Assembly (NCBI GenBank): GCA_963747235.1 | Contig: CAVVEU010000024.1 | Coordinates: 768,364-832,363, forward strand | Origin: an uncultured Candidatus Rokubacteria bacterium | Lineage (GTDB): Bacteria > Methylomirabilota > Methylomirabilia > Rokubacteriales > CSP1-6 | DNA: 64,000 nucleotides | Direction: 5' to 3' | Shown: positions 10,925 through 35,725 of the stretch, piece by piece | How positions within the stretch are numbered: position 1 is the first letter of the stretch | Layout of the letters: each line of letters begins with the position of its first letter | The notes under the pieces: generated by a model | Databases searched by the model: none | Seen by the model: the letters and a program-made list of their open reading frames with translations, nothing else | What the model was told of the DNA's origin: nothing | Position numbers and translations under genes: made by a program

Positions 10925-10935
10925 GGCAGGGCACC

Positions 10936-12006: not shown

Positions 12007-12052
12007 GCTACTGAATACGTAGCGGTAGGATGTCTGCTACGGAAACGATAGC
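12007..12052. promoter_or_regulatory. Pair of GCTAC-N7-(G/A)TAGC operators between divergent HxlR and CMD genes
   Basis: gctac-tgaatac-gtagc (12007-12023) and gctac-ggaaacg-atagc (12036-12052). Confidence 0.65.
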
Positions 12053-12076
12053 ACAGGCTCACGGAGGATCGACGCC

Positions 12077-12688
12077 ATGACCGCCGCCCGCATCGCCCCC
12101 CTCGAGGGTCCGTACTCCCCGCCGGTCCAGGAAGCGCTGGACCGCATCATGCCGGCCGGCGTGCCGCCGCTCGCGCTCTTCCGTACCCTCGCGGTCAACG
12201 AGCGGGTCTTCCTCCGCCTGATGGCGGGCGGCCTGCTGGACCGGGGCTCGATCAGCCTGCGCGAGCGCGAGATCGTCATCGACCGGACCTGCGCGCGCTG
12301 CGGCTCGGAGTACGAATGGGGCGTGCACGTGGCCTTCTTCGCCGAGCGGGTCGGCCTCACCGCCTCACAGGTCGCCGCCACCTGCGCGCCCGAGGCGGAG
12401 GCCGGGGCGTTCCCGGAGCGCGAGCGCCTCCTCATCCGCCTGGTGGACGCCCTCCACGACGAGGCGCGCGTCGACGACGCGCTCTGGGCCGCGCTGCGGA
12501 TGGAATGGAGCGAGCCGCAGCTCATCGAGCTGATCGCGCTGGCCGGGTTCTACCACCTGATCGCGTTCGTCACCAACGCGCTCAGGATCCCCCCGGAGCC
12601 CTACGGGGCGCGGTTCCCGCGAGCGGACGGGCCGGGCGCAGCCGGTGATGGACGTTCTCCCCGCGCGTCTCCTTCAACAGGAGGCTGA
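12077..12688 (+). CDS. Carboxymuconolactone decarboxylase / AhpD-like protein
   Basis: REREIVIDRTCARCGSEYEWGVH; GGAGG RBS. Confidence 0.85.
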   Translation: MTAARIAPLEGPYSPPVQEALDRIMPAGVPPLALFRTLAVNERVFLRLMAGGLLDRGSISLREREIVIDRTCARCGSEYEWGVHVAFFAERVGLTASQVAATCAPEAEAGAFPERERLLIRLVDALHDEARVDDALWAALRMEWSEPQLIELIALAGFYHLIAFVTNALRIPPEPYGARFPRADGPGAAGDGRSPRASPSTGG

Positions 12689-13917: not shown

Positions 13918-14681
13918 GCGCCGCGGGTCCAGAAGCCGGCGGGGTCGCACTCGCGGACGATGGCGAGCTCCGCGGCGGTCGGCGTCGGCGTCGGCCCCAC
14001 GTCGGGCGCGGTCCGGAGCGTGAACCCGGTGGCGGCCCGGACGCTGTCCACGCTCTGGCCCGGATGATAGGAGGCCAGGTACATCTCGCAGGTCGCGGGA
14101 TCGAAGCGGAAGACGCCCAGCGTGGTGACCACCGCGGCGGGCCCGCCGCCGGTGAGCCCGACCCGCGCGCGCCAGCCCGGACCCTCGCCGAAGCCGGGCG
14201 AGGTGATGTAGTCCACGCGCTCGCGGAAGCGATGCTTCTCCTGCGGCATGATCACCACGAAGCGCCGGGCCAGGCTCGCGATGTCGCCGCCGCCGCCGCT
14301 GCCGGGCAGCCGCACCGTCGGCCGGCGCCAGTCCCCGATGTAGGACGTGTTCAGGTTGCCGAACCGGTCGATCTCGGCGCCGCCGATGAAGCCCAGGTCC
14401 ACCAGCCCCTGCTGGAGGAACGCCATGATCTCGATCGTGCCGGTGCACCACAACGCGCCCGGGATGTTCGGCGTGTCGCTCATGGTCATCAGGGTCTCGG
14501 GCGCCGGTTGATCGCGCACGATGCCGTTCTCGAAGAGCCCGGTGGCCCCGGGCGCGTGCGTGCGCTTGGCGTAGGCGAACGCGATCAGCGGCAGCCGCAT
14601 GCCGACGAAGACCACGTCCTGATCGCGGATCTCCCGGGCTGCCGCGATGACCATGAGCTCGCGCTCGGTGAAATCTGTCAC
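13914..14681 (-). CDS. Family I CoA-transferase beta subunit (GctB/PcaJ-like)
   Basis: VVFVGMRLP, FENG catalytic Glu, GGAEIDRFGNLN, RLPGSGGGGDIA. Confidence 0.9.
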   Translation of the reverse strand: MTDFTERELMVIAAAREIRDQDVVFVGMRLPLIAFAYAKRTHAPGATGLFENGIVRDQPAPETLMTMSDTPNIPGALWCTGTIEIMAFLQQGLVDLGFIGGAEIDRFGNLNTSYIGDWRRPTVRLPGSGGGGDIASLARRFVVIMPQEKHRFRERVDYITSPGFGEGPGWRARVGLTGGGPAAVVTTLGVFRFDPATCEMYLASYHPGQSVDSVRAATGFTLRTAPDVGPTPTPTAAELAIVRECDPAGFWTRGA

Positions 14682-15796
14682 GGGCGGAGGTCGAAGATCT
14701 GGGCGTTGCCCTTGACGAAGGGGTGGCGGCGGAGGGCTTCGGGGTTGAGCTCGACGCCGAGGCCGGGACCCTTCGGCACCTCCATCCAGCCGTCGCGCGC
14801 CTGGATCGGCCGGGCCAGGAACGGGGTCTCCTGGTCGCCGGTCGGGAACTCCACGGGCAGGGGCCCGCCGAAGGTCGCGGCCACGTGCAGGGTCGCGGCC
14901 AGCCCGGGGCCGAAGTAGAACGAGTGCGGCGCGATCGGCAGGTTCGCGGCCTGGGCGAGCGCGGCGATCTTCTTGAACTCCGAGATGCCGCCGACCTTGG
15001 TGACGCTCGGCTGCAGCACGTCGCCCGCCCGCTGCCGCACGATCTCGTTGAAGCCGTAGAGCGTGGATTCGTTCTCGCCCAGCGCGATCGGGGTCTCGGT
15101 GGCGGCGGCGACGCGCGCGAGGCCGGCGTAGTCCTCCGGCGGCCACACCGGCTCCTCCAACCAGAAGAGGCGGTAGGGCTCGAGCGCGCGGGCCATCGCG
15201 ATGGCCTCGAAGGGCGTCCAGGGGCAGTTGGTATCGAGCATCAGCTCCACGTCGGGTCCCACCGCGTCCCGCGCGGCGCGCACCGAGGCCACGTCGGTCT
15301 GGTGGAGCTTGAGCATGCGGAAGCCCTGGGCGACGAACTGCCGGCAGGCGCCCGCCACCGCCTCCGGCGTCTCGTAGCGCAGGAGGCTCGCGTAGGCGGG
15401 CAGGCGCGGCCGCCGGGCGCCGCCCAGCAGCTCGTACACCGGGGCGTTGCGCACCTTGCCGAGGAGATCCCACAGCGCGATCTCGATCCCGCTGATCGCG
15501 AACATGCCGAGCCCGCGCCGGCCGTAGATCATGGTGCCCCGGTGCATCACGTCCACCACCGCCTCGATCGCGAGCGGATCGAGCCCGATGACGAGCGGGG
15601 CCAGGCTCTCCTCGATGACGCTCACGACCGCGAGCGGCGCCCCGTAGGCGAAGGCCTCGCCGAGGCCGGTGACGCCCTCGTCGGTGTGCACGAGCACGTA
15701 GATCTGCTTGCGCGTGCCGCCGGTCCAGGGCGACGGCGGCGTCATCGGCTTGAGGGGAATGGCGAGCGGCACGGCCTCGATGGCGGTGATCTTCAT
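14678..15796 (-). CDS. Mandelate racemase / muconate lactonizing enzyme family protein
   Basis: TDEGVTGLGE, ALWDLLGK, MLDTN, WLEEP, LGENE, PGLGVE. Confidence 0.9.
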   Translation of the reverse strand: MKITAIEAVPLAIPLKPMTPPSPWTGGTRKQIYVLVHTDEGVTGLGEAFAYGAPLAVVSVIEESLAPLVIGLDPLAIEAVVDVMHRGTMIYGRRGLGMFAISGIEIALWDLLGKVRNAPVYELLGGARRPRLPAYASLLRYETPEAVAGACRQFVAQGFRMLKLHQTDVASVRAARDAVGPDVELMLDTNCPWTPFEAIAMARALEPYRLFWLEEPVWPPEDYAGLARVAAATETPIALGENESTLYGFNEIVRQRAGDVLQPSVTKVGGISEFKKIAALAQAANLPIAPHSFYFGPGLAATLHVAATFGGPLPVEFPTGDQETPFLARPIQARDGWMEVPKGPGLGVELNPEALRRHPFVKGNAQIFDLRP

Positions 15797-15799
15797 GGG

Positions 15800-16720
15800 T
15801 CAGGCTCCGTAGTCGAGTGGCTCGGACGGCAAGGGGTGGGTGACCCGCACCGCGTCGAGGACGCCCGCGTCGAGCCGGGAGAGGAAGGCCTTCCAGTCGG
15901 GCGCTCCGTGGACCCAGTGGCCGAGCCACTGCCGGAAGCCCTCCGGGGTCCGGCTCTCCTCGTGGAAGCGGTGGTAGAAATCGTGACGGCGACCATAGTA
16001 GCCCTGCACCGGCGAGGGAAACGCGCCCCACGGCTCGTGGACGACCGCGGCCACCTTGAGCGCGGGGGTGAGCACGAGGCCCGGGTCGCTCAGGATGCGC
16101 GCGCGCGGCCGGATCTCCTCGGCCACGATGATCACGCGCTTCGCCGCGAAGGCGGCCTGCCGCGTCACGCCCAGGGTGCCCCAGACGTGCGCGTGGCCTT
16201 CCTCGTCGGCGCGCTGCACGTGGAGGATGGCCACGTCGGGCGCGATCGCGGGCACCAGCAGGAGCGGGGCGCCGGACCAGGGGTCGGTCGCCGCCTTGAA
16301 GGTCGGGTTGGAGTTCGGCAGATCGGTCCCGAGGAGCGAGCGCGTGGGCAGGTAGGGCACGCCGAGGGCCGCGGCCTGGAGCGCGAAGGCGATGGTGAGG
16401 TTCGAGTGATCCTCCACCTCGATCGGCCCGGGCACGCGCTGCTCGACGGCGCGGCGGTAGTTGTAGCCGAGGCCCGCGCTGACGTTGCCGACCCAGGCCG
16501 CGATCACCCGGCGCACGCAGCCCGCGCCGATGAGCTGGTCGAAGAGGATGTCGGAGATGGGGCCGATCAGGGTGAGATCGCGCCGGCGCTGGCGGATCAG
16601 CTCGTGGCCCGCCGCGAAGGGGATGAGGGCCTCGAGCGCCGTGCCCATGCAGATCGAGGCGCCGTCCGGCACGAAGCGGGCGATGGCATCCCGCATGGAC
16701 ATGAGCTTGGGCGGCGGCAC
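15800..16720 (-). CDS. Family I CoA-transferase alpha subunit (GctA/PcaI-like)
   Basis: AGHELIRQRRRDLTL, AAALGVPYLPTRSLLGTD, PDVAILHVQRAD, PSPVQGYY. Confidence 0.9.
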   Translation of the reverse strand: MPPPKLMSMRDAIARFVPDGASICMGTALEALIPFAAGHELIRQRRRDLTLIGPISDILFDQLIGAGCVRRVIAAWVGNVSAGLGYNYRRAVEQRVPGPIEVEDHSNLTIAFALQAAALGVPYLPTRSLLGTDLPNSNPTFKAATDPWSGAPLLLVPAIAPDVAILHVQRADEEGHAHVWGTLGVTRQAAFAAKRVIIVAEEIRPRARILSDPGLVLTPALKVAAVVHEPWGAFPSPVQGYYGRRHDFYHRFHEESRTPEGFRQWLGHWVHGAPDWKAFLSRLDAGVLDAVRVTHPLPSEPLDYGA

Positions 16721-17678: not shown

Positions 17679-20051
17679 CTACTCGGTGACGCCGTTCGTC
17701 GCGCAGGAGGCGCCAGACTTTGGGCGGCGTGATGGGAATGTCCACGTGGCGGACGCCGAGATGCCAGAGGGCGTCGACGACCGCATTGGCGATGGCGGCC
17801 GGGGCGCCGACCGTGGCGGACTCACCGACACCCTTGGCGCCGAGGGGGTGATGCGGCGACGGCGTCACCGTGTGGCCGGTCTCCCACTTCGGCGTCTCCA
17901 CCGCGGTGGGCACGAGGTAGTCGATGAAGCTGCCGCCCTGGATATTGCCGATCTCGTCGTAGGAGATCTCCTCGAAGAGCGCGGGCGCCAGCCCCATGGT
18001 GAGCCCGCCGTGCACCTGCCCCTGGACGATCATGGGGTTGATGATGTTGCCGCAGTCGTCGATGGCCACGAAGCGGCGCACCTTGACCTCGCCGGTGCCC
18101 TTGTCGATGTCCACCACGCAGATGTAGCTGCCGAACGGGTAGGTGAGATTCGGCGGGTCGTAGTAGCTGACCGCCTCGAGCCCGGCCTCCATCCCCTGCG
18201 GATGGTTGGTGTAGGCCGCGAAGGCGATCTCCTGGATGGTCTTGGCGCGATCGGGCGCGCCCTTGACCGAGAACTTGCCCGGCTCCCAGACCAGGTCTTC
18301 CGGCGCGGCCTCGAGCAGGTGCGCGGCGATCTTGCGGGCCTTGTCCTGGATCTTGCGCGAGGCCATGGCGGCCGCCGCGCCCGCCACCGGCGTCGAGCGG
18401 CTCGCGTAGGTGCCGAGCCCGTAGGGCGCGGTGTCGGTGTCGCCCTCCTCGACCTTGATGTCCTTGGTCGGGATGCCGAGCTCCTCGGCCAGGATCTGGG
18501 CGTAGGTCGTCTCGTGCCCCTGACCCTGCGACTTGGTCCCGAAGCGGGCGATGGCCTTGCCGGTCGGGATGGATCCGGATCTCGCAGCTGTCGAACATCT
18601 TGAGCCCGAGGATGTCGAAGTGCTTGGACGGGCCGGCGCCGACGATCTCGGTGAAGCTCGAGATGCCGATGCCCATCAGCTCCCCGCGCTTGCGCTTCTC
18701 GGTCTGCTCGCGCCGCAGGTCGGCGTAGCCGATCGTGTCCATGGCCTTGTGCAGGGCGCCCGCGTAGTTGCCGCTGTCGTACTCCCAGCCGAGCGCCGAC
18801 TTGTAGGGGAACTGCTCCGGCTTGATGAAGTTCTTCATCCGGAATTCGGCCGGGTCCGTGCCGAGCTGGTGGGCCATGATGTCCACCATGCGCTCGATCG
18901 TGTGCACGGCCTCGGTGACGCGGAAGGAGCAGCGATAGGCGATGCCGCCGGGCGGCTTGTTGGTGTAGACGCCGTCGACCTCGACGTGCGCGGCCTTCAG
19001 GTCGTAGGACCCGGTGCAGACGTGGAAGAGCCCGGCCGGGAACTTGGACGGATTCGCGGCCGCGTCGGTGTAGCCGTGGTCGGCCAGCGTCTTGATCCGC
19101 AGCGCGGTGAGCGTCCCGTCCTTCTTGGCGGCCAGCTCCGCGGTGATGTGGTAGTCGCGCGCGAAGGAGTCCGCCTGGAGATTCTCCATGCGGTCCTCGA
19201 TCCACTTCACCGGCTTGCCGGTGAGCACCGAGGCGGCCACCGCGATCACGTAGCCCGGGTAGACCGGCACCTTGCCCCCGAACCCGCCGCCGATGTCCGG
19301 GGAGATGATGCGGATCTTGTGCTCTTCGCAGCCCCACGTGGCCGGCCACCAGCGCGAAGACCGTCCGGATCGCGTGGGGGGCCTGCGTGGTCATCCACAC
19401 CGTGAGCTTGTCCTGGACCTTGTCGCAATGGGCGACGCAGCCGCACGTCTCGATGGAGGCCACGTGGATGCGCGGGATGTAGATGTCCTCCTTGACCGTC
19501 ACGTCGGCCTCGGTGAAGGCGCGGTCGGTCTCGGCCCGGTTGCCCCACTCCCAGTGCCAGATGTGATTGTCCTTCTTGTCCTTCTTGTCGGTGCGGAGCA
19601 CCGGCGCGCCCGGCTCCAGCGCCTTCTTCGGGTCCACCACGACCGGCAGGGGCTCGTACTCGACCTCCACCGCGGCCACGCCGTCGGCGGCCGCGTAGCG
19701 GCTCGTGGCCAGCACCGCCGCCACCTCCTGAGCCTGGTACATGACCTTCTCGACCGGCAGCACCATCTGGGTGTCCGACATGAGGGTCGGCATCCAGTGC
19801 AGGTTGTACTTGGCGAGATCCTGGCCGGTGATCACCGCGAGCACGCCCGGGATGGCGAGCGCCTTCGTGCTGTCGATCTTCTTGATCTTGGCGTGGGCGA
19901 ACGGGCTGCGCACGATGTCGAGGTAGAGCATGCCGGGCAGCACCACGTCGTCCACGTACGTGCCCTTGCCGCGGATGAAGCGCGGGTCTTCCTTGCGCTT
20001 GATGGAGTGCCCCATCCCACCGACTTCGGGCGATGTCCGGAGTGCCATCAT
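17679..20051 (-). CDS. coxL: Aerobic CO dehydrogenase large subunit, form I (frameshifted near 19330, 18560 and 17700)
   Basis: [21 protein letters not shown], active-site [15 protein letters not shown]. Confidence 0.95.
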
Positions 20052-20518
20052 GCGCCTCCCTGGAGCGTGACCGCCGCGTGCTGGACGGCCTTGACGATGT
20101 TGACGTAGCCGGTGCAGCGGCAGAGGTTGCCGGAGATGGCCCGGCGGATGTCATCCTCGGTCGGCTTCGGATTCTTCTTGAGGAACGCCACGCTGGTCAT
20201 CAGCATGCCCGGCGTGCAGTAGCCGCACTGCAGCCCATGCTCGGCGATGAAGGCGTCCTGCACGGGATGGAGCTTGCCGTCCTGCTCGAGCCCCTCCACC
20301 GTGGTGATCTCGCGCCCGTGCGCCTGGACCGCGAACATGGTGCAGGACTTGATCGGCCGGCCGTCGAGCAGCACCGTGCAGGCCCCGCAGTGGCTCGTGT
20401 CGCAGCCGATGTGGGTGCCGGTGAGCCGCAGGTTCTCCCGGATCAGGTGGACCAGGAGGAGCCGCGGCTCCACCTCCGCCTCGTGCTTCTCCCCGTTGAT
20501 CGCGACCTTGACGAGCAT
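20048..20518 (-). CDS. coxS: CO dehydrogenase small 2Fe-2S subunit
   Basis: [29 protein letters not shown]. Confidence 0.95.
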
Positions 20519-20522
20519 GGGC

Positions 20523-21399
20523 TCAGCCTCCTCTCTGCGCGCGCTCGATCGCCTTGCGAAGCGCGCGGCCGGTCAATACCCGCACCAGGTCCTTCTTGTA
20601 CTCGACCGACCCGCGCAGGTCGGCTTCGGGCTGCGCCGCGTCCGCGGCGAGCTGGGCCACTTGCTTGATGGTTGCCTCGTCCGGCCGCTTGCCCCGGAGC
20701 GCGGCCTCGGCCTGCGTGGCCTTGATCGGGACCGAGCCCACGTTGGTGAGCCCGATGCCGACCTGCTCGCAGGTGCCGTTGGCGGCCAGCGTGAGCTGCA
20801 CCGCTACCGCCGCGGTGGCGAAGTCGCCGACCTTGCGCTCCATCTTCACGTAGGCGCCGCCGCTGCCCGGCTTGGGCGCCGGCACCCGGATCTCCACCAC
20901 GATCTCGTCCGGCTTGAGCGCGGTGGTGAGCGGCCCCGTGAAGAACGACGTGATCGGGATCTTCCGCTCGCCGCCCCCGCCGACCGCCACGATCTCGGCG
21001 CCGAAGGCCAGCATGGTCGCGGGATGGTCGTTGGCGGGGTCGCCGTGCGCGAGGTTGCCGCCGATCGTGGCCAGGTTGCGCACGATGGGATCGGCGATGA
21101 CCTTGCAGGTGTCCGCGAGCAAGCGGGTAACGAGAGCGCACCAGGTCCGACTCCTCGAGATCCACCTCGCGGGTCAGCCCGCCGATGCGCAGCGCGCCGC
21201 CGTCCTCGCGCACGTAGGCGAGGCCGGGGAGGCCGTTGATGTCGATCAGATGTCGCGGCGAGGCGAGCCGGAGCTTCATCAGCGGGATGAGGCTCTGCCC
21301 TCCCGAGAGGATCTTGGCGTCGTCGCCGAGCCTGGCGAGCAGCGCGGTGGCCTCCCCGATCGAGCTGGGTGCGTGGTACTCAAATGTGCCCGGAATCAT
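20523..21399 (-). CDS. coxM: CO dehydrogenase medium FAD subunit (frameshift near 21120)
   Basis: [58 protein letters not shown]. Confidence 0.93.
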
Positions 21400-21886
21400 C
21401 GTGGTGACTCCCTTCTGGATCTGCCCGGCGCGGGAGCTCGCGAACGCGAGCCCGGCGCGCTTCAGGGCGACCCGGAGCGATTCCAGCGACAGCGCGGGCA
21501 CGACACCGGCCTGGACGAGGTACTGCCGGAGCCTGGCCAGGCTCCACCGCGTCCCCGGGATGCCCAGATCCCGGGGCCGGGCGCTCACGACCATGGAGAT
21601 GTGACGGAGTGCGTCGGACGAGATCCTGGCGGGCCGGCCGGCGCGCGGGCGATCCAGCAATCCGGCGATGCCCGATCGCTCGAACCGGCGCAGCCAGTGA
21701 GGTGACGGTGGGGCGGGAGAGGCCGAGGCGCCGGACGATCTCCGGAATCGCGACCCGAGCCGCCGAGAGCAGGATCACGTCGGCGCGCGGGCGAGTTCCC
21801 GCGGGGCCCGCGTCCCGGAGCCGGATCAGCTCCGAGCGCTCGGCCGGGGTCGGCTGCCGGACGAACCGACTCGGGACGTCTGCCAC
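21400..21886 (-). CDS. IS630/Tc1-type N-terminal HTH domain without DDE domain, in frame with coxM (1-nt indel near 21700)
   Basis: RADVILLSA..IPEIVRRLGLSRPTV.HWLRRF..SGIAGLLDRPRAGRP...PRDLG...RWSLARL; GGAGAGG RBS. Confidence 0.75.
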
Positions 21887-25956: not shown

Positions 25957-26027
25957 TGGCGAGCGTAGCGATCTCGAGGGGGCGGGTCAATGTCCTCGGA
26001 GCGAGACACTTGACACCCCTCCCATGA

Positions 26028-26125
26028 CTTTAGTAATAATGAATCGGAGTTTCATCATCAAGTAACTGGAGCCCAATCTTTAGTAATAATGAATCGAAGT
26101 TTCATCATTAAGTAACTGGAGCCCA
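26028..26125 (+). promoter_or_regulatory. Tandem 48-bp AT-rich duplication (period 50), each copy carrying a palindromic operator
   Basis: 26028-26075 and 26078-26125 differ at 2 nt; TAATAATGAA-N7-TTCATCATTA; TTGACA at 26010-26015. Confidence 0.8.
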
Positions 26126-26130: not shown

Positions 26131-26612
26131 GTGCCCACGCTCCTGACGCTCAAGATCAACGGGGAAGCGCGCGATGTCCTCGCGCCGGCGCACAAGACTC
26201 TGCTCGAGGTGCTGCGCGAGGAGCTGAACCTCACCGGCACCAAGCACGGCTGCGAGCTGGGCGAGTGCGGCACGTGCACCGTGCTGCTGGACGGCGAGCC
26301 CGTGCTCTCCTGCCTGGCGCTGCCCGTCGAGTGCCAGGGGCGCGAGATCAAGACCGTGGAGGGCATGGCCGAGGGCGGCCGGCTCCACCCGCTGCAGCAG
26401 GCCTTCGCGGAGCTGGGCGCCGCCCAGTGCGGCTACTGCACGCCCGGCATTCTCCTCACCGCCGAGGCCCTCCTGGTGGACATCCCCACCCCGACGCGCG
26501 ACGAGATCAAGCACGCGCTCGCCGGCAATCTCTGCCGGTGCACGGGCTACACGAAGATCCTCGACGCCGTCGAGCTCGCCGCCCTGCGGATGAAGGCGGA
26601 CTCAGCGCATGA
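26131..26612 (+). CDS. hcrC: 2Fe-2S small subunit, 4-hydroxybenzoyl-CoA reductase gamma-like
   Basis: [30 protein letters not shown]; stop probably the ATGA overlap at 26609-26612 after an indel. Confidence 0.75.
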
Positions 26613-29018
26613 AGAAAGACCGGTTCTCGATCATCGGCCAGTCGCTGCCCAAGATCGACGCGTGGGCCAAGGTCATCGGCGAGACCAAGTTCGCCGACGA
26701 CATGGTGATGTCGCGGATGGCCCACGGCAAGCTGCTGCGCAGCCCGCATCCGCACGCGCTCATCAAGCGCATCGACACGACGCGCGCCCGCGCGCTGCCC
26801 GGCGTCTACGCGGTGATCACCGGGCACGACCTGCCGCGCGTGAAGTTCGGCATCCTGCCGGTGTCGCAGGACGAGGAAGCGCTCTGCGTGGAGAAGGTGC
26901 GCATGGTCGGCGACGCGGTCGCGGCGGTGGCCGCGGTGGACGAGGAGACGGCCGAGCGCGCGACCGAGCTGATCGAGGTGGAGTACGAGCCGCTGCGCGC
27001 CCTCATGTCCATCGAGGATTCGCTGAAGCACCCGGAGGTGCGCATCCACGAGTACGGCGACCGGCCGAACGTGCACAAGGCGGTGTCGCTCCAGTTCGGC
27101 GACGTGGAGGCGGCGTTCGCGGCGGCCGACCTCGTCCGCGAGGACGTCTTCTACTTCGAGGGCAACACGCACCTGCCGATGGAGCAGCACTCGGCGCTGG
27201 CCCAGTGGGGCGCCGACGGCAAGCTCACGCTCTGGTCCTCGACCCAGACGCCCCACTACGTCCACCGGCTGCTCTCCAAGATCCTCGACGTGCCGCAGGC
27301 GCACATCCGCGTGGTGGCGGCGCCGGTGGGCGGCGGCTTCGGCGGCAAGCTCGACCCGTTCGCCCACGAGATCGCGGCGTGCAAGCTCTCCCAGCTCACC
27401 GGGCGGCCGGTCAAGTTCACGCTGACGCGCGAGGAGGTCTTCTACGTCCACCGCGGCCGGCATCCGGTGCTGATGTGGGTCAAGACCGGCTTCACGAAGG
27501 ACGGCGCGATCACCGGCATGCACTTCCGCTCCTGGCTCGACGGCGGGCGCCTACGGCTCCTACGGCGTCGCCTCCACCTTCTATACCGGCGCGCTCCAGA
27601 CCGTCACCTACAAGATCCCGGTCTACAAGTTCGAGGGCGCGCGCGTGTTCACCAACAAGCCGCCCTGCGGGCCCAAGCGCGGGCACGGGACGCCCCAGCC
27701 GCGCTTCGCGATGGAGTGCCAGATCGACAAGGCGGCCGAGCAGCTCGGCCTCGATCCGGCCGACATGCGGCGGCGCAACCTGGCCGAGCCGTTCGTGAAG
27801 ACCGCGAACCACCTGACCGTGACCACCATCGGCCTCGGCGAGTGCATCGACCGCGTGGTGGAGGCCTCCGGCTGGCGGGAGAAGCGCGGGAACCTGCCCC
27901 CGGGCAAGGGGATCGGCATCGCGTGCTCGTCCTATCTCACCGGCGCGGGCACCGCGATCTACTGGAACGACATGCCGCACTCCGGCGTGGTCGTCCGCGC
28001 CGATCGCAGCGGGCTCGTGGCGGTGCTCTGCGGCGCCACCGACATCGGCCAGGGCTCGGACTCGATCCTGGCCTATCTGGTGGCGGAGGTGCTGGGCATC
28101 GAGCCCAAGGACATCCGCGTGCATCCGGCCGACACCGACCTCACGCCGGTGGATCTGGGCTCCTACTCCTCGCGCGTGACGCTGATGGCGGGCAACGCGG
28201 CGATCCAGGCCGCCGAGCGGCTGCGCGAGAAGATCTTCGCGGCCGTCGCGCGGAAGCTCGAGGTGCCGGCCGAGCGGCTCGCGGTCGGCGAGCGCCGCGT
28301 GTTCGTGCAGGACGATCCCGAGCACGGCGTCTCGTTCGCGGAGGCGGTGGTGCTGGCCGAGAGCATGTGGGGCGTGCTCGCCTTCCCGGGCTCCTACGCG
28401 CCGCCCAAGCGCGCGGGCAAGTACAAGGGCGGCGGCGTCGGGCCCTCGCCCTGCTACTCCTACTCGGCCTGCGTGGTCGAGGTGGACGTGGACGCCAGAC
28501 CGGCGAGGTCACGCCGACCGAGGTGTGGATCGCCCACGACGTCGGCCGGGCGCTCAATCCGCTGCTCGTGGAGGGCCAGGTCGAGGGCTCGATCTACATG
28601 GGCCTGGGCGAGGTGCTGATGGAGGAGCAGGTCTTCCGCAAGGGCGTGCACAAGATCCCCTCGCTGCTCGAGTACAAGAGCCCGACCACGCTCGAGACGC
28701 CGGAGATCCACACCATCCTCGTGGAGACCGACGATCCGGAAGGGCCGTTCGGCGCCAAGGAGGCCGGGCAGGGGCCGCTCCTGCCGGTGATCCCGGCGGT
28801 GGCCAACGCGGTCTACGACGCGGTCGGCGTGCGCATCGACGAGACGCCGATCACGCCCGAGAAGGTGACGAAGGCGATGGACAGCAAGCGCCAGGGGAAG
28901 TCGGCGCGGCTCGGGCCCGACCGGCTGCCCGTGTTCACGTTCCCGGAGCCCAAGATCGTCGAGTCGGCCTTCGGGCAGCCCGCGGAGAACATCGCCGTGA
29001 GGCCGTTCGGCGTCATGA
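26609..29018 (+). CDS. hcrA: Molybdopterin large subunit, 4-hydroxybenzoyl-CoA reductase alpha-like (two frameshifts)
   Basis: LRSPHPHA, STQTPH, VGGGFGGK, HRGRH, PPCGPKRGHG, DIGQGS, DLGSYSSRVT, VEGQVEG, GAKEAGQGP. Confidence 0.75.
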
Positions 29019-30018
29019 TGCGGCTGCCGCCGTTCACGTATCTGGCGCCGGTGTCGGTGGCCGACGCGGTCAAGCTCATGGCCGATCACGGGCCCGAGGC
29101 CATGCTGGTGGCCGGCGGCACGGATCTCTACCCGAACATGAAGCGTCGCCAGTTCGAGCCCACGGTGCTGGTGGGGCTGCGCGGCGTCCGCGACCTGGCC
29201 GGCGTGCGGCAGCCGGGCGCGGGCGCGCTCGCGATCGGCGCGGGGACGACGCTCACCGCGGTCGCGCGCCACCCCGAGGTGCGCGCGCAGCTACGCGGCG
29301 CTGGCCACCGCGGCGGGCGCGGTCTCCACGCCGCAGCTCCGCAACATGGGCACGCTCGGCGGCAACGTGTGCGTGGACACGCGCTGCAACTACTACAACC
29401 AGTCGTACCAGTGGCGGAAGGCGGTCAACTTCTGCATGAAGAAGGACGGCGAGATCTGCCTCGTGGCGCCGGGCAGCCCGCGCTGCTGGGCCGTGTCCTC
29501 GTCGGACACCGCGCCCACGCTCTGGAGCCTGGGCGCGAGCGTGCGGCTGGCCGGCCCCGCCGGCGAGCGCATCATCCCGATCTCGGCGCTCTACCAGGAC
29601 GACGGCATCCAGTACCTGACCAAGCAGCCGGGAGACATCGTGACCGAGATCGTGCTGCCCCCCGCCGACGGCGCCCGCTCCATCTATCTCAAGCTGCGCC
29701 GCCGCGGCTCGTTCGACTTCCCGGTGCTGGGCGTCGCGGCCACGCTGCACATGGACGGCGACACCGTGCGGCAGGCCCGCATCGTGCTGGGCGCGGTGGC
29801 GTCGCAGCCGCGCGAGGCGCGTGGAAGCCGCCCGCGTGCTGGTCGGCGAGCGCCTCACGCCCGAGCTGATCGACCGCGCGGCCGATGCCGCGTACCGGCC
29901 CGCGAAGCCGCTCGACAACACCGATCTGACGCACCCGTACCGCAAGAAGATGGTGCGCGTCTACGTGGCGCGCGCGCTGCGACGCCTGGCCGGCCTGCCG
30001 GACGAGGCGGAGGCATGA
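29015..30018 (+). CDS. hcrB: FAD subunit with 4Fe-4S insert, 4-hydroxybenzoyl-CoA reductase beta-like (frameshifted)
   Basis: AGGTDLYPNMKRR, GTLGGNVCVDTRCNYYNQS..WRKA..FCMKKDGEICLVAPGSPRCWA, KLRRRGSFDFP. Confidence 0.8.
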
Positions 30019-30563
30019 CCGCGCTCGGCCAGCGCATCAAGGCCTTCCGCGCCGAGCGGGCGCTCCAGCAGCGCCAGCTCGCCGAGAAGGCCGGCCTCAC
30101 CGCGAGCATGCTGTCGCAGATCGAGTCGGGGCGCCTGACCCCGTCGCTGCCGACCCTGGGCAAGCTCGCGGCCGCCCTGGGCGTGTCCATCGGCGCGCTC
30201 TTCGAGCCGGCCCCGGCCGGGCGGCTCCTGGTGAGCCGGAAGGCCGACTACCCGGTGGTGTCCTTCGACGGCACCACCGAGAAGTGGCACGTGTTGGGGG
30301 CCGGGCTCTTCCAGGGTAAGATCCGGGCGGTGATGTCCACGCTCGGGCCGCGGTCGCGGGGCGTGAAGACGGACAAGGTGGTCATCGAGCCGGGGCAGAT
30401 GAAGCTCTTCTACGTGATCGAGGGCAAGGTGGCCCTGCAGTACAACGGCGACAGCCACGTGCTCGAGGCGGGCGACAGCGCCTATCTCGACGGCGGCACC
30501 ACGCACGGCTGGGAGAACGTGGGATCCAGGATCGCCAAGGTGCTGTGGGTGATCCTCGGCTAG
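30015..30563 (+). CDS. XRE-family HTH + cupin transcriptional regulator
   Basis: LGQRIKAFR..QLAEKAGLTASMLSQIESGRLTPSL; cupin LEAGDSAYLDG..HGWEN. Confidence 0.9.
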   Translation: MTALGQRIKAFRAERALQQRQLAEKAGLTASMLSQIESGRLTPSLPTLGKLAAALGVSIGALFEPAPAGRLLVSRKADYPVVSFDGTTEKWHVLGAGLFQGKIRAVMSTLGPRSRGVKTDKVVIEPGQMKLFYVIEGKVALQYNGDSHVLEAGDSAYLDGGTTHGWENVGSRIAKVLWVILG

Positions 30564-30573
30564 AGGAGAGGTC

Positions 30574-32248
30574 ATGGGCGACGGCGCGCGCGTGGTGGTC
30601 GACTTCCGGACGGACCCGAGCCGGTACAAGCACTGGAAGCTGTCCTTCGACGGCCCGGTGGCGACGCTCGCCATGGACGTCAGGGAGGACGGCGGGCTCG
30701 TGCCCGGCTACGAGCTCAAGCTCAACTCCTACGATCTCGGGGTGGACATCGAGCTCTACGACGCCATCCAGCGGCTGCGCTTCGAGCATCCCGAGATCGG
30801 CGCGGTCGTCCTCACCTCCGGCAAGGAGCGGATCTTCTGCGCGGGCGCCAATATCCGGATGCTGAGCCAGTCCTCGCACGGCTGGAAGGTGAACTTCTGC
30901 AAGTTCACCAACGAGACGCGCAGCGCGATCGAGGACGCCACCACGAGCTCGCGCCAGGTCTGGCTCACCGCGGTGAACGGGCCCTGCGCGGGCGGCGGCT
31001 ACGAGCTGGCGCTGGCCACCGACTGGATCATCATGTCCGACGACGGCTCCACCACGGTGGCGCTACCCGAGGTGCCGCTGCTCGCGGTGCTGCCGGGCAC
31101 CGGCGGCCTCACGCGGCTGGTGGACAAGCGCCGGGTGCGCCGCGACCGCGCCGACTTCTTCTGCACGCTGGAGGAGGGCATCAAGGGCCAGCGCGCGGTG
31201 GAGTGGCGGCTGGTGGACGAGGTGGTGCCGCGCTCGCGCCTGGCCGAGGCCACGAAGGCGCGGGCGGGCGAGCTGGCCGCGCGCACCGACCGCCCCGCGG
31301 GCGCGCGCGGCATCGCGCTCGCGCCGCTCGAGCGCGCGCATCGAGGGCGATCGCATCGCGTACGCCCACGTCGCCTGCGCGATCGACCGCGAGCGGGGCG
31401 TGGCCGAGATCACGGTGGCCGCGCCCGCGACGCCGCCCCCGGCGGACCCGGCGGGCATCCACGCCGCGGGCGGGAGCTTCTGGCCGCTCGCGGTCGCGCG
31501 GGAGCTCGACGACCTGATCCTGCACCTCCGCGCCAACGAGGAGGAGATCGGCCTCTGGGTGCTGCGGACCACCGGCGCCGCGGATCTGGTGGAGGCCCAC
31601 GACCGGGCGCTGGCTGCAGCACGAGGCGGACTGGCTCGTGCGCGAGATCCGGCTCTACCTCAAGCGCACGTTCAAGCGTCTGGACGTCTCGTCGCGCTCC
31701 ATCTTCGCGCTGGTCGAGCCCGGCTCCTGCTTCGCGGGCACGCTGCTCGAGCTGGCGCTGGCCGCCGACCGCACGTTCATGTTCGACGGCGAGCGTCGAG
31801 GGCGACGCGCAAGGCCCCGGCCGCCGTGCGGCTGACCGCAATGAACTTCGGGCCGTATCCCACGGTGAACGGCCTCACCCGCCTGGCGAGCCGCTTCCTG
31901 GACGAGCCCGGGCGCGTGGACGATCTCAAGGGCCGGATCGGCGAGGACCTCGACGCGGCCGCCGCGGCGGAGGCCGGCCTCGTCACCTTCACGCCGGACG
32001 ACATCGACTGGGCGGACGAGGTGCGCATCGCCATCGAGGAGCGCGCCGCGTTCTCGCCGGACGCGCTGACCGGCATGGAGGCCTCGCTGCGCTTCGGCGG
32101 TCCCGAGACACTCGAGAGCAAGATCTTCGCGCGGCTGTCGGCCTGGCAGAACTGGATCTTCCAGCGGCCCAACGCGGTCGGCCCCAAGGGCGCGCTCAAG
32201 GTGTACGGCACCGGTGAGCGGGGCGATTTCGACCGCAGGAGAGTGTGA
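30574..32248 (+). CDS. boxC: 2,3-epoxybenzoyl-CoA dihydrolase (frameshifted)
   Basis: YKHWKL, LKLNSYDLGVDIELYDA, HGWKVNFCKFTNETR, SPDALTGMEASLRF, WQNWIFQRPNAVG. Confidence 0.93.
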
Positions 32249-33667
32249 TGGCGGGCATCGACTACAGCGAGCGGATCCCCAACAACGTGAGCCTCACGGA
32301 GGACCGCCGGCTGCTGCGGGCGCTGGAGGACTGGCAGCCGAAGTTCCTCGAGTGGTGGCACGACATGGGGCCGGAGGGCTTCCAGTCCAAGGACGTCTAC
32401 CTGCGCACCGCGGTGAGCGTGGACGCCAAGGGCTGGGCCCAGTTCGGCTACGTGAAGATGCCCGAGTACCGCTGGGGCATCTTCCTCGCCGAGCCGGAGG
32501 CCGACCGCCGGGTCAACTTCGGCGACCACCAGGGCCAGCCCGCGTGGCAGGACGTGCCGGGCGAGTATCGCGGCGACGCTCCGTCGCCTCATCGTCACCC
32601 AGGGCGATACCGAGCCCGCGTCGGTGGAGCAGCAGCGGCACCTGGGCCGGACCTGCCCGTCGCTCTACGACCTGCGCAACCTCTTCCAGGTCAACGTGGA
32701 GGAGGGGCGGCACCTCTGGGCGATGGTCTACCTGCTCGACGCCCACTTCGGCCGCGACGGGCGCGAGGAGTCGGAGGCGCTGCTGCAGCGGCGCTCGGGC
32801 GACCACGACAAGCCGCGGATCCTGGGGGCGTTCAACGAGAAGACCCCGGACTGGCTCTCGTTCTTCATGTTCTGCTTCTTCACGGATCGCGACGGCAAGT
32901 ACCAGCTCGCCAGCCTCGCGGAGAGCGGCTTCGACCCGCTCTCGCGCACCTGCCGCTTCATGCTCACGGAGGAAGCGCACCACATGTTCGTGGGCGAGGC
33001 CGGGGTGGGGCGCATCGTGCAGCGGGCCTGCGAGCTCATGCGCGAGCACCGGACCGACGACGTGCGGAAGCACGGCGGGATCGACCTGCCCACCCTGCAG
33101 AAGTACATCAACTTCCACTGCTCGGTCTCGCTCGACCTCTTCGGCTCCGAGGTCTCGACCAACGCGGCCAACTTCTACACCGCGGGGCTCAAGGGGCGCT
33201 TCGAGGAGACCAAGAAGGCCGACGATCATCGCCTGAAGGGCGGGACCTACCCGGTGATCGGGCTCGACGGCGAGAAGATCGTCACCCGCCAGGAGGGCGC
33301 GCTGGTCTCGCTCAACGAGCGGCTGCGCGACGACTACGTCGCCGACTGCCAGCGCGGGGTGACCCGCTGGAACGAGATCATCAAGAATCACGGGGTGGAC
33401 TTCACCCTCACGCTGCCGCACCGCGCCTTCCGCCGGGCCATCGGGGCCTTCGCGGAAGTGCGGGTGTCGCCCGACGGCCGCGTCATCAGCCAGGCCGAGT
33501 GGGACGCGCGGCATCGCGACTGGCTGCCGACGGATGAGGACGCGGCCTACGTGGGCAGCCTGATGAAGCCGGTGACCGAGCGCGGCAAGATGGCCGACTG
33601 GATCGCGCCGCCCGCGCGCGGCATCAACAGCCAGGCCGAGGATTTCGAATACGTCCGGTTGAGCTGA
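32248..33667 (+). CDS. boxB: Benzoyl-CoA 2,3-epoxidase diiron subunit (frameshift near 32575)
   Basis: ERIPNNVSL, YLRTAVSVD, QGDTEPASVEQQRHLG, EEGRH, EEAHH, LNERLRDDY. Confidence 0.95.
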
Positions 33668-33680
33668 CGGAGGAGGTGCC

Positions 33681-34185
33681 ATGCCCCCCACCATACCCAC
33701 GGTCGTCACACCGAAGCGCTTCGGTCCCCCTCTCGGGATGTACTCGCACGGCATGGTCGCCCCGGGCGGCGAGATCGTCGTGGTCGCGGGGCAGGTCGGG
33801 ATGGACGAGCGGCGCGCGGTCGCGGTCGGGGACGTCGGCGCGCAGACGAAGCAGGCCCTGGAGAACGTGCGCGCCATCGTCGAGGCCGCGGGCTGCACGA
33901 TGGGCCACATCGTGCGCCTGCAGACCTTCCTGACCCACGCGGAGGACATTCCCCGCTTCATGGCGGCCCGCGGCGAGGTCTTCCCGAAGTACTTCCCGAA
34001 CGGCGCCTACCCGCCCAATACGCTCCTCGTGGTCAGCCGCCTCGTGCAGCCCGAGCTGCTGGTCGAGATCGAGGCCATGGCGGTCAAGCCCGCGCGCGGC
34101 CGCCGTCGCGAAGCGGCCCGCGGCTCGGCCCAAGGCCGCCAAGCCCAAGGCCGCCGCCAAGAAGGCCTCGCGGAAGCGCCGATGA
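33681..34185 (+). CDS. RidA/YjgF family protein with Lys/Ala/Arg-rich tail (frameshift near 34100)
   Basis: GMYSHG, AGQVG, YPPNTLLVVSRLVQPELLVEIEA; tail KAAKPKAAAKKASRKRR ends at the ATGA overlap. Confidence 0.82.
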
Positions 34186-35725
34186 TCGAGGTGCCCGCGC
34201 GCTTCAACGCGGCGACCTTCTTCGTGGACCGGCACGTGGCGGAAGGCCGCGGCGCCAAGGTGGCCTTCTTCCACGACGAGGGCTCGATCACCTACGCGGG
34301 GCTGCAGGAGCTGGTCAACCGCACCGGCAACGCGCTGCTCGATCTGGGCGTGCGCCCGGAGCAGCGGGTGCTGTGCCTGCTGCTCGACTCGCCCGAGTTC
34401 CTGGGCGCGTTCTGGGGCGCCATCAAGATCGGCGCCGTCCCGATCCCCGCGAACACGATGATGCGGGCCGACGACTACCTGTACTTCCTCGACGACAGCC
34501 GCGCGCCGGTCGCGATCGTCTCGGAGGCGCTGCTGGCGGAGGCGGGGCCGGCGCTCGCGAAGGCGCGCTATCTCCGGCACGTGATCGTCGCGGGGCGCGC
34601 GTCCGGGACCCAGATCGCCTTCGAGAGCTGGGTGGCCAAGGCGTCGCGCGCGGCTCGAGCCCTTCGACAGCTCGAAGGACGATGCCGCCTTCTGGCTCTA
34701 CTCCTCGGGCTCCACGGGCCGGCCGAAGGGCGCGGTGCATCTCCAGCACGACATGGTGGTGTGCTCGGACACCTACGCGCTCCAGGTGCTCGGCATGACC
34801 GAGGCCGACCGCACCGTCTCGGCCGCGAAGCTCTTCTTCGCCTACGGCCTCGGCAACAACGGGTACTTCCCGCTGCGCGTGGGCGGCCAGGGCGTGCTCT
34901 ACCCGCACCGCCCGACGCCCGACGCGATGTTCGAGCTGATCCAGCGGCACCGCCCGACGCTCTTCTTCGGCGTGCCCACGCTCTACGCCGCGATGCTGCA
35001 GGTGAAGGAAGCGGAGAAGCGCTACGACCTCTCGTGCCTCCGCTTCTGCGTCTCCGCGGGCGAGGCGCTGCCCGAGGAGCTCTACCGGCGCTGGCGGGAG
35101 CGCTTCGGCGTGGAGATCCTGGACGGGATCGGCACCACCGAGATCCTGCACATCTTCCTGTCGAACCGCCCCGGTCGCGCGCGGCCCGGGTCCACCGGCT
35201 TGGCGGTGCCGGGGTACGAGGCGATCGTCGTGGACGACGAGGGCCGCCCGATGCCCGCCGGGGAGATCGGCAACCTCCGGGTCAAGGGCGACTCGATCAT
35301 GGCCTACTACTGGAACCAGCACGAGAAGACGAAGGACGCGCTGATCGGCCACTGGATGCAGACCGGGGACAAGTACTACCAGGACCCGGACGGCTACTTC
35401 TGGTACTGCGGCCGCGCCGACGACATGCTCAAGGTCGGCGGCATCTGGGTGTCGCCGGTCGAGGTGGAGAACACCCTGATGGGCCATCCCGCCGTCCTGG
35501 AGACCGCGGTGGTGGGCCACGCGGACACGCGACGAGCTGATCAAGCCGAAGGCCTTCGTGGTGCTGAAGGACGGGCACGCGGCCTCCGCGGCCCTCGAGG
35601 CCGAGCTCAAGGCCTTCGTGAAGGACAAGATCGCGCCCTACAAGTATCCGCGGTGGATCGAGTTCGTGCCGGAGCTGCCCAAGACCGCGACGGGCAAGAT
35701 CCAGCGCTTCAAGCTGCGGCAGTGA
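34182..35725 (+). CDS. Benzoate-CoA ligase family protein (two frameshifts)
   Basis: FWLYSSGSTGRPKG, SAAKLFFAYGLGN, CVSAGEALP, LDGIGTTEILHIF, PKTATGKIQRFKLR. Confidence 0.92.

What the first reader, a model, noticed from the sequence alone, without database searches (positions are those of the whole stretch)
26131..35725. Hybrid operon: Hcr-like molybdoenzyme coupled to the aerobic Box pathway, without boxA or boxD
Seen: one tightly packed, largely ATGA-coupled run hcrC-hcrA-hcrB-XRE-boxC-boxB-rid-benzoate-CoA ligase. Known: Hcr is the anaerobic 4-hydroxybenzoyl-CoA dehydroxylase; BoxB needs O2 and the reductase BoxA; BoxD oxidises the BoxC aldehyde product. Neither boxA nor boxD is in the window. 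Inference, three alternatives: (a) microoxic funnelling of 4-hydroxybenzoate into Box; (b) the Mo/FAD/FeS complex replaces BoxA as electron donor; (c) it oxidises the semialdehyde and recycles electrons to BoxB, replacing both.
Basis: partly seen in the sequence, partly recalled or inferred. Interest (0 to 1): 0.78.

Follow-up and report, generated by a model that had tools for sequence, protein, structure and literature searches.

The report
Altered molybdenum enzyme feeding benzoate ring-opening
An uncultured bacterium keeps, in one operon, the oxygen-using enzymes that open benzoate's ring and an uncharacterised molybdenum enzyme that lacks its family's catalytic glutamate, and that enzyme more probably prepares substituted aromatic acids for ring opening than supplies electrons to the oxygenase.

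Summary
The operon is real: hcrC-hcrA-hcrB-XRE-boxC-boxB-rid-benzoate-CoA ligase. Its many 1-bp frameshifts are absent from intact relatives, which are Ca. Rokubacteria. hcrB lies beside boxB in 27 of 31 boxB-positive relatives. No boxA or boxD was found in this 88%-complete genome. The Mo enzyme is not ordinary Hcr: it falls below the three family cut-offs, keeps the [4Fe-4S] loop, and has Gln for catalytic Glu726.

Profiling weakens the 'replaces BoxA/BoxD' ideas. BoxA and PaaE are missing lineage-wide, also where the Mo enzyme is missing. The Gln enzyme occurs with anaerobic benzoyl-CoA reductase and no epoxidase in three genomes. It sits beside aldehyde dehydrogenases, and it often travels with a second CoA ligase.

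Best reading (0.5): an aroyl-CoA reductase, 4-hydroxybenzoyl-CoA likeliest, feeding benzoyl-CoA to whichever ring-attacking system is present, with ferredoxin reducing BoxB. Electron donation to BoxB remains possible (about 0.17). The scan had noted this pairing and the Glu-to-Gln change on other DNA; ten paper searches found no description.

The parts
26010..26047 (+). sigma-70-like promoter (TTGACA at 26010-26015; TAGTAA/TAATAA -10 region) overlapped by an AT-rich near-palindrome, probable operator of the XRE-cupin
   Evidence: The same TTGACA-spacer-TT[T/C]AGTA layout lies upstream of hcrC in most of the 37 Rokubacteria loci printed; the operator role is inference
26028..26125 (+). 48-nt direct repeat (two copies, 96% identical, spacing 50) of the -10/operator segment
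   Evidence: a single copy in the relatives shown; may be an assembly artefact
26131..26612 (+). hcrC-like 2x[2Fe-2S] subunit
   Evidence: TIGR03193 189.9 bits, cut-off 257.8
26609..29018 (+). hcrA-like Mo-cofactor subunit (1-bp indels near 27544, 28492 and 29010)
   Evidence: intact relative scores 857.5 vs cut-off 994.55; best PDB match 1rm6_A, E 1e-188
27675..27677 (+). Lys codon (PKRGHG) at the place of Hcr Met357, next to the conserved cofactor Arg
28769..28771 (+). Gln codon (CAG) at the place of the catalytic Glu (Hcr Glu726; GAKEAGQG vs GAKEASEG)
   Evidence: the other 21 of 22 readable XDH-type large subunits in the genome have Glu
29015..30018 (+). hcrB-like FAD subunit with the four-Cys [4Fe-4S] insertion (29385-29486); indels near 29289 and 29821
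   Evidence: four Cys invariant in 20 of 20 aligned relatives; TIGR03195 at most 311 bits vs cut-off 404.55 in 41 genomes
30015..30563 (+). XRE helix-turn-helix plus cupin regulator (PuuR-like; not BoxR)
30574..32248 (+). [quoted passage not shown]
   Evidence: intact relative 910 bits vs cut-off 712
32248..33667 (+). boxB, diiron benzoyl-CoA 2,3-epoxidase (indel near 32572)
   Evidence: intact relative 867 vs 499 and matches 3per_A at E 9e-232
33681..34185 (+). Rid-family protein with a low-complexity tail
   Evidence: missing from many order-level relatives
34182..35725 (+). benzoate-CoA ligase family protein (indels near 34646 and 35529)
   Evidence: intact relative 672 vs 375

Best explanation
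The operon is a CoA-thioester funnel. Shown by sequence: a ligase, BoxB and BoxC of the ordinary Box type, and an Hcr-shaped Mo/FAD/FeS enzyme with intact cofactor motifs and an altered active site (Glu726 to Gln, Met357 to Lys). Inferred: the Mo enzyme works on a substrate upstream of BoxB. It reductively removes a ring substituent from an aroyl-CoA and yields benzoyl-CoA; 4-hydroxybenzoyl-CoA is likeliest (about 0.35 overall), an amino- or other substituted benzoyl-CoA less so (about 0.15). Electrons would enter at the [4Fe-4S] loop from reduced ferredoxin, and the new Lys may take over proton delivery from the lost Glu. BoxB then epoxidises benzoyl-CoA with O2, reduced by a free ferredoxin or another housekeeping carrier instead of BoxA. 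BoxC opens the ring, and a general aldehyde-oxidising enzyme stands in for BoxD.
For: (1) In a 160-genome Acidobacteriota sample, 25 of 28 genomes with the Gln enzyme have a candidate benzoyl-CoA sink: BoxB or short BoxB-like 15, divergent PaaA 7, bcrB 12; G124, G160 and G172 have bcrB and no epoxidase. The intermediate shared by Box and Bcr is benzoyl-CoA (established knowledge). (2) 18 of 21 bcrB genomes have exactly one Hcr-like gene, either Gln-type (12), Glu-type (5) or unread (1), never both. (3) The enzyme avoids canonical phenylacetyl-CoA PaaA: 0 of 15 Chloroflexota with canonical PaaA only, against 22 of 25 with the divergent PaaA type, although both lack PaaE. (4) A second, PaaK-like CoA ligase recurs next to it: 51 of 192 loci, redundant set; 14 of 80 metagenome loci. 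The T. aromatica 4-hydroxybenzoate ligase is listed as a 48-kDa monomer (PMC8388817, table passage), the PaaK size class. (5) In the tree, canonical HcrA (P0139, 1302 bits) nests among epoxidase-linked lineages, with a bcr-adjacent lineage outside. (6) Gln occurs almost only with the new Lys: K/Q 36, K/E 11, non-K/Q 1, non-K/E 40, unread 1, of 89. (7) No pobA in 0 of 5 Rokubacteriales; 2-oxoacid:ferredoxin oxidoreductases in 5 of 5; an FdxA-like ferredoxin in this genome and one in a box operon (L227).
Against: The Glu is described as essential in XO-family hydroxylases and in the Ucd dehydroxylase model (passages of PMC10420851, PMC11760930), so Gln may abolish dehydroxylation. Ucd dehydroxylation was fully blocked aerobically, which sits badly with co-transcription with an O2-using enzyme. 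This genome lacks the co-travelling ligase at >=45% identity over its length and has no bcrB. 3 of 28 Gln genomes have no sink found. Outside Rokubacteriales the enzyme is mostly not adjacent to the epoxidase. Kin are not independent, so the contingency counts overstate significance. No substrate-specific gene was found among recurrent neighbours. The substrate of the divergent PaaA and short BoxB-like proteins is assumed, not shown.
Confidence: 0.5

Rival explanations
1. One reading: the Mo/FAD/FeS complex replaces BoxA or PaaE. It oxidises some donor at Mo (or takes NAD(P)H at FAD) and passes electrons through the surface [4Fe-4S] cluster to the diiron centre of BoxB or PaaA.
For: Tight operon with boxCB in 27 of 31 relatives and no boxA. 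The module is found beside three different diiron proteins: BoxB, a 370-aa BoxB-like protein and a divergent PaaA. 25 of 25 Chloroflexota with the clade have a PF05138 protein vs 27 of 136 without. BoxA itself delivers electrons through [4Fe-4S] clusters and binds BoxB only transiently (PMC4498308 passage). Loss of the Glu would fit a role without C-O chemistry.
Against: BoxB persists with neither BoxA nor this enzyme in 6 of 27 Acidobacteriota with full boxB and in the Nonomuraea gerenzanensis record. 17 canonical-PaaA genomes have neither PaaE nor the enzyme. Three genomes have the enzyme with bcrB but no epoxidase. Other reductase candidates sit by boxB in some loci: ferredoxin in L227, NuoF-like in L235. 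The Mo subunit is highly conserved, which a pure NAD(P)H-to-BoxB wire would not need (inference).
Confidence: 0.11
2. One reading: the enzyme oxidises the BoxC semialdehyde (or the formate that BoxC releases) and recycles the two electrons to BoxB, replacing both BoxD and BoxA.
For: No boxD-type aldehyde dehydrogenase in the genome; the stoichiometry matches (established pathway knowledge); hydride transfer from formate to Mo=S would not need the Glu base (inference).
Against: Aldehyde dehydrogenase genes lie in the same gene run as the Gln enzyme in L314, L327, L328 and with a Glu sister in L294. XO-type aldehyde hydroxylation needs the Glu. 21 other Glu-type XDH subunits in the genome could oxidise the aldehyde. 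The enzyme also occurs with Paa-like and bcr-only systems, where no formate is expected.
Confidence: 0.06
3. Metabolite repair: the enzyme removes oxygen from the arene oxide/oxepin, or from 2- or 3-hydroxybenzoyl-CoA formed when the epoxide rearranges, and returns benzoyl-CoA.
For: Explains the association with several epoxidase types and needs only oxygen removal from an aroyl-CoA. Epoxide deoxygenation is known for PaaAC and proposed for BoxB (PMC5489048 passages).
Against: The same DFT paper finds epoxide-to-phenol isomerisation unfavourable and lets BoxB deoxygenate on its own. It does not explain the bcr-only genomes or the extra CoA ligase.
Confidence: 0.1
4. An ordinary 4-hydroxybenzoyl-CoA reductase used only under anoxia, co-located with box genes because both respond to aromatic acids.
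For: Nearest solved structure for all subunits tested is 1RM6; gene order and [4Fe-4S] loop are Hcr-like; Aromatoleum forms aerobic and anaerobic pathway proteins under both conditions (PMC9765128 passages).
Against: Below all three family cut-offs, Glu726 replaced, and bcrB over cut-off in 0 of 18 Rokubacteriales tested and absent here, so there is no anoxic sink for the product.
Confidence: 0.06
5. A different reaction on an aromatic or ring-cleavage intermediate not listed above, for example oxidation of an aromatic aldehyde or heteroaromatic CoA ester, or a step of the lower pathway.
For: Altered active site; recurrent neighbours include CoA-transferase subunits, crotonases, thiolase and Rid; many loci have no aromatic neighbour.
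Against: No specific substrate is indicated; the position in the tree is among Hcr lineages.
Confidence: 0.17

Closest known systems
4-hydroxybenzoyl-CoA reductase HcrCAB of Thauera aromatica (PDB 1RM6/1SB3; TIGR03193-03195)
   Same: Gene order gamma-alpha-beta, three-subunit Mo/2x[2Fe-2S]/FAD layout, four-Cys [4Fe-4S] loop, cofactor residues at Gln214 and Arg358, GQG and SYSSRV motifs
   Different: Below all three cut-offs; Glu726 to Gln, Met357 to Lys, GARTE to GKLD; operon with boxCB; no bcr in the genome
Box pathway of Aromatoleum/Azoarcus evansii and Burkholderiales (BoxABC, BoxD, BoxR; PDB 3PER)
   Same: BoxB, BoxC and benzoate-CoA ligase all above cut-off in the intact relative; boxC-boxB order as in Mycetohabitans
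   Different: No boxA, no boxD, an XRE-cupin instead of BoxR, and the Mo enzyme in front
Phenylacetyl-CoA epoxidase PaaABC(D)E
   Same: Diiron aryl-CoA epoxidase logic; in other phyla the Mo enzyme co-occurs with a divergent paaA-D-B-C cluster
   Different: Those PaaA score 106-148 bits vs cut-off 280 and no PaaE was found; canonical PaaA does not co-occur with the Mo enzyme
Urolithin 9-dehydroxylase UcdCFO (Enterocloster)
   Same: XDH-family reductive dehydroxylase of phenols (PMC11760930 passages)
   Different: Ucd keeps the Glu (E741), lacks the [4Fe-4S] loop, uses NAD(P)H and is O2-inhibited; no sequence comparison with Ucd was run here

Membership tests
4-hydroxybenzoyl-CoA reductase (Hcr) | three subunits in gamma-alpha-beta order, best match to TIGR03193/4/5 | tested here: met
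4-hydroxybenzoyl-CoA reductase (Hcr) | four-Cys [4Fe-4S] insertion in the FAD subunit | tested here: met
   E. coli PaoB also aligns in one stretch, so the loop is not unique to Hcr (that PaoB holds such a cluster is recalled)
4-hydroxybenzoyl-CoA reductase (Hcr) | score above the curated cut-offs | tested here: not met
   alpha 857.5/994.55, beta at most 311/404.55, gamma 189.9/257.8
4-hydroxybenzoyl-CoA reductase (Hcr) | active-site Glu726 | tested here: not met
   Gln in the window and 20 of 20 relatives; Gln in 86 of 86 readable among 91 further loci, partly redundant
4-hydroxybenzoyl-CoA reductase (Hcr) | Mo-cofactor motifs intact and maturation factor present | tested here: met
   XdhC-like gene on contig C20
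4-hydroxybenzoyl-CoA reductase (Hcr) | reduces 4-hydroxybenzoyl-CoA with low-potential ferredoxin | not testable with these tools
   needs an enzyme assay
4-hydroxybenzoyl-CoA reductase (Hcr) | part of the anaerobic benzoyl-CoA route (bcr in genome) | tested here: not met
   no bcrB here; over cut-off in 0 of 18 Rokubacteriales; bamB not searched
Box pathway | BoxB above cut-off with diiron motifs | tested here: met
Box pathway | BoxC and benzoate-CoA ligase | tested here: met
Box pathway | BoxA reductase | tested here: not met
   positive control; genome 88% complete
Box pathway | BoxD aldehyde dehydrogenase | tested here: not met
   2 Aldedh loci, SSADH-like and PutA-like; relatives not searched for boxD
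Box pathway | BoxR regulator (XRE plus shikimate-kinase domain) | tested here: not met
   XRE-cupin; NF006015 39.5 bits vs 204
Diiron-epoxidase reductase (BoxA/PaaE role) | present wherever the epoxidase lacks BoxA/PaaE, absent where no epoxidase exists | tested here: not met
Diiron-epoxidase reductase (BoxA/PaaE role) | anti-correlation with boxA across boxB genomes | tested here: inconclusive
   no boxA-bearing genome in the samples; Pseudomonadota could not be sampled with the genome tool
Diiron-epoxidase reductase (BoxA/PaaE role) | electron transfer to BoxB | not testable with these tools
   needs reconstitution

The most novel reading that the evidence does not exclude
The Glu-less Mo/FAD/FeS complex is the missing reductase of BoxB and of related diiron aryl-CoA epoxidases. 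It oxidises a pathway product (formate or the ring-cleavage semialdehyde) at Mo and wires the electrons through its [4Fe-4S] loop straight to the diiron centre, making ring opening independent of NADPH. It would be the first molybdoenzyme serving as a monooxygenase reductase that I know of (recalled, not searched exhaustively).
Probability: 0.17. Interest if true: 0.88.

Novelty: new variant of a known kind. Interest (0 to 1): 0.62.

Why it matters
This gene set is common in abundant uncultured lineages: beside boxB in 27 of 31 Rokubacteriales, with the Gln form in 28 of 160 Acidobacteriota and 21 of 161 Chloroflexota sampled. Databases label it '4-hydroxybenzoyl-CoA reductase', a marker read as anaerobic metabolism. 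If the best reading holds, plant-derived phenolic acids are stripped reductively and then ring-opened with O2 in one operon. It would also mean a xanthine-oxidase-family enzyme works without the catalytic glutamate, which a Gln-to-Glu and Lys-to-Met mutant pair can test. Either way the data expose an open question: what reduces BoxB and PaaA in the many phyla that have neither BoxA nor PaaE.

Tried and rejected
HcrB-BoxB complex prediction with paired 20-row alignments: no answer, score 0.19 against a mark of 0.32, controls not folded; used neither for nor against binding. An early idea of mine, that the enzyme is a general substitute for BoxA and PaaE, was dropped. The formate-recycling idea was set back by the Paa-like and bcr-only contexts. 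An hcrA-hcrB fusion was rejected as a 1-bp error. No plasmid record holds the clade: best identity 38% among 155 matching records. A metagenome scan with P0125 found nothing. ESM Atlas gave only generic XDH and BoxB cluster names. A true boxA anti-correlation test was not possible because no boxA-bearing phylum could be sampled. The PaaE model had no positive control over cut-off. Fisher values are not used as significance because kin are not independent. Paper searches found no description of the hcr-box operon or of the Gln clade; most subscription papers are outside the library, two requested papers were not held, and no supplements were read. A diiron 4-hydroxybenzoyl-CoA hydroxylase with NIH shift (PhgA, recalled) could be what the 370-aa BoxB-like proteins are; this was not tested.


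Full report
Observation. The eight genes are present in the order given, on the + strand, 26131-35725. They are tightly coupled: four ATGA overlaps, one TGATG overlap and two gaps of 10 and 13 nt. The window lies on contig C24 of a 5.57-Mb, 88%-complete assembly. Its nearest named relatives in GTDB are Candidatus Rokubacteria/Methylomirabilota MAGs at 90-100% identity to the query. Six of the eight genes are broken by 1-bp indels against the intact relative L068 (93% DNA identity). Relatives are mostly intact and unrelated genes of this genome are split likewise, so I read these as long-read errors. Upstream sits a TTGACA promoter with an AT-rich near-palindrome, conserved in relatives; here a 48-nt segment of it is duplicated.

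Conservation and missing genes. boxB is over cut-off in 32 of 41 genomes of the order, own included. By the coordinates, hcrB lies within 4 kb on the same contig in 27 of the 31 relatives; in the other four, boxB is within 2.7 kb of a contig end or cut off. All 20 fetched regions show hcr genes directly before boxC-boxB. boxA is over cut-off in 0 of 40 relatives and absent here by HMM and by tblastn with a real BoxA (control). The genome has two aldehyde-dehydrogenase loci, SSADH-like and PutA-like, no bcrB, no PaaE over cut-off, and a lone paaK-paaA pair on C8.

The Mo enzyme is not ordinary Hcr. Its best structural match is T. aromatica Hcr, and it keeps the cofactor motifs and the four-Cys loop. 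All three subunits fall below the family cut-offs. The alignment to 1rm6_A puts Gln at Glu726. This holds in 20 of 20 relatives and in 86 of 86 readable among 91 further, partly redundant loci, while 21 of 22 readable XDH-type subunits of this genome keep Glu. The equivalent Glu1261 activates the Mo-hydroxide in xanthine oxidase (PMC10420851 and PMC4334109, passages) and is called essential in the Ucd dehydroxylase model (PMC11760930 and PMC13753352, passages). A Lys replaces Met357, and Gln appears almost only with it (36 K/Q, 11 K/E, 1 non-K/Q, 40 non-K/E, 1 unread, of 89). In a FastTree tree of 89 sequences (my selection of loci and representatives), Gln and Glu forms are interleaved (L209 Q is sister to L212 E, support 0.996). 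Canonical HcrA nests among epoxidase-linked Glu lineages, and a bcr-adjacent lineage lies outside. No topology test was run.

Profile outside the order. Acidobacteriota, 160 genomes after leaving out one unpublished genome: 57 have an Hcr-like hit at E<=1e-170, 28 of them with Gln read. BoxB or a 370-aa BoxB-like protein is found in 33, of which 27 have an Hcr-like gene. A divergent PaaA type is found in 13 (one of them by its PaaC-type hit only), all with an Hcr-like gene and none with boxB. bcrB is found in 21 at E<=1e-120, 18 with an Hcr-like gene. Of the 28 Gln genomes, 15 have BoxB-type, 7 divergent PaaA, 12 bcrB, 3 bcrB only and 3 none. Chloroflexota, 161 genomes: 25 carry the clade (21 Gln, 3 Glu, 1 unread), and all 25 have a PaaA/PaaC-family hit against 27 of 136 others. 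22 of 25 genomes with the divergent PaaA have it, against 0 of 15 with canonical PaaA only. In some loci the link is physical: hcr genes, PaaK-like ligase and paaA-D-B-C in L140, L142, L144; hcr genes with the short BoxB-like protein in L057, L058, L100, L101, L121 (Gln) and L241-L244 (Glu). In most Acidobacteriota it is genome-level only. These genomes are kin, so the counts describe a pattern and are not independent trials.

Alternative (b) rested on the absence of boxA. That absence is lineage-wide: boxA is over cut-off in 0 of 40 outside genomes, including six with full boxB and no Hcr-like enzyme. The Nonomuraea gerenzanensis record has boxB and boxC with neither. PaaE is over cut-off in 0 of 76 genomes, 17 of which have canonical PaaA and no Hcr-like gene (no positive control reached the cut-off). 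So these epoxidases run on some other reductant. A ferredoxin sits in one box operon and a NuoF-like gene follows boxB in another, and this genome has ferredoxin-reducing oxidoreductases and an FdxA. Three genomes hold the Gln enzyme with bcrB and no epoxidase. Alternative (c) meets the same objections; in addition, aldehyde dehydrogenase genes run with the Gln enzyme in L314, L327 and L328. Alternative (a) fits best. The enzyme tracks systems that consume benzoyl-CoA, shown for BoxB and Bcr and assumed for the two divergent diiron types. Gln and Glu forms exclude each other in bcr genomes. A second, PaaK-like CoA ligase is among its commonest neighbours. pobA was found in 0 of 5 Rokubacteriales. 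Against (a): the lost Glu, the O2 sensitivity of a related dehydroxylase, and the absence of that ligase from this genome.

How it most likely works. Shown: ligase, BoxB and BoxC are regular members of their families; the Mo enzyme has a full cofactor chain and a changed active site; BoxA and BoxD were not found. Inferred: substituted benzoate to its CoA ester; reductive loss of the substituent at Mo, with electrons from ferredoxin through [4Fe-4S], FAD and 2x[2Fe-2S] (direction by analogy with Hcr; the ferredoxin donor is recalled, the 'inverted electron flow' was seen only as a cited title); benzoyl-CoA to the epoxide by BoxB, O2 and ferredoxin; ring opening by BoxC; aldehyde oxidation by a general enzyme. 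Confidence 0.5. Rivals: BoxA replacement 0.11, semialdehyde or formate recycling 0.06, epoxide repair 0.10, ordinary anoxic Hcr 0.06, other chemistry 0.17.

Comparison with what is known. It works most likely like Hcr upstream and like Box downstream. It is not filed as Hcr (cut-offs and Glu726 not met) and is not a complete Box cluster (BoxA, BoxD and BoxR not met). Box clusters lacking boxA or boxD are in print: SAR324 bins with boxB, boxC, no boxD and a separately noted Hcr annotation (PMC4782131, passages), and a Burkholderiales-centred survey (PMC10803450, passages). BoxA is described as a transient [4Fe-4S]/FAD partner of BoxB (PMC4498308, passages), and PaaE as dispensable in some strains (PMC13186573, passages). 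PMC5489048, PMC9765128 and PMC8388817 were read as passages, the last also section 7. No whole text or supplement was read. Ten searches found no paper on this operon or clade, within an open-access library.

Earlier scan notes had recorded the Glu-to-Gln clade and the hcr-box pairing on other DNA. I had found both before reading them. One note prompted the bcr test, and another prompted the Lys count.

Verdict. Observation confirmed; interpretation partly supported; new variant of a known kind; interest 0.62. The boldest reading, a molybdoenzyme acting as the epoxidase's reductase, is not excluded (0.17) and would deserve 0.88.

Noticed in passing
window 17900-21400 (-): coxM-coxS-coxL run; CoxL carries the AYRCSFR motif near 18958 and matches TIGR02416 best, i.e. 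a probable form I CO dehydrogenase; coxG-like gene at 860-1300 (motif meaning and coxG label recalled)
   Followed up: partly
window 6443-16708: Hydrolase, indolepyruvate:ferredoxin oxidoreductase-like alpha and beta genes, crotonase, MFS, enolase-family gene and two CoA-transferase subunits; the CoA-transferase pair recurs near hcr-like genes in 18-23 of 192 loci across phyla
   Followed up: partly
window 26028-26125: 48-nt tandem duplication of the promoter/operator segment, not seen in relatives
   Followed up: partly
window 21139-21886 (-): Short transposase-like ORF pieces running into the coxM start (read by eye)
   Followed up: no
G000:C8:752500-754600 (L156): Lone paaK-paaA pair without paaB, C, D or E, also seen at the matching place in four relatives
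   Followed up: partly
L140, L142, L144, L284-L303: A divergent paaA-paaD-paaB-paaC cluster, never found with boxB among 13 Acidobacteriota and in two loci followed by the same crotonase that accompanies the short BoxB-like protein; possibly a second kind of benzoyl-CoA epoxidase
   Followed up: partly
L057, L058, L100, L101, L121, L241-L244: 370-aa BoxB-like diiron protein (223-237 bits, cut-off 499) with a single-domain crotonase instead of BoxC
   Followed up: partly
L235:9856-10828 and L227:6465-6740: NuoF-like gene with a small Cys-rich ORF directly after boxB in one genome, and an FdxA ferredoxin at the end of a box operon in another: candidate BoxA substitutes
   Followed up: partly
Acidobacteriota sample: bcrB over cut-off in 20 of 161 genomes; many of these also have boxB, so both benzoyl-CoA routes coexist
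   Followed up: partly
L333 (Nonomuraea gerenzanensis record): boxB and boxC flank a PaaX-like regulator, with no boxA match in the record
   Followed up: partly
L059, L060: Short BoxB-like genes in G028 without hcr-like neighbours; in L060 near benzoyl-CoA-reductase-like or 2-hydroxyacyl-CoA-dehydratase-like genes
   Followed up: no
window 53861-58548: dnaA-like gene (-) and groES-groEL, in a stretch where GC falls from about 0.70 to 0.59-0.65 toward the contig end (labels read by eye)
   Followed up: no
G000 whole genome: At least 22 XDH-family molybdenum large subunits
   Followed up: no
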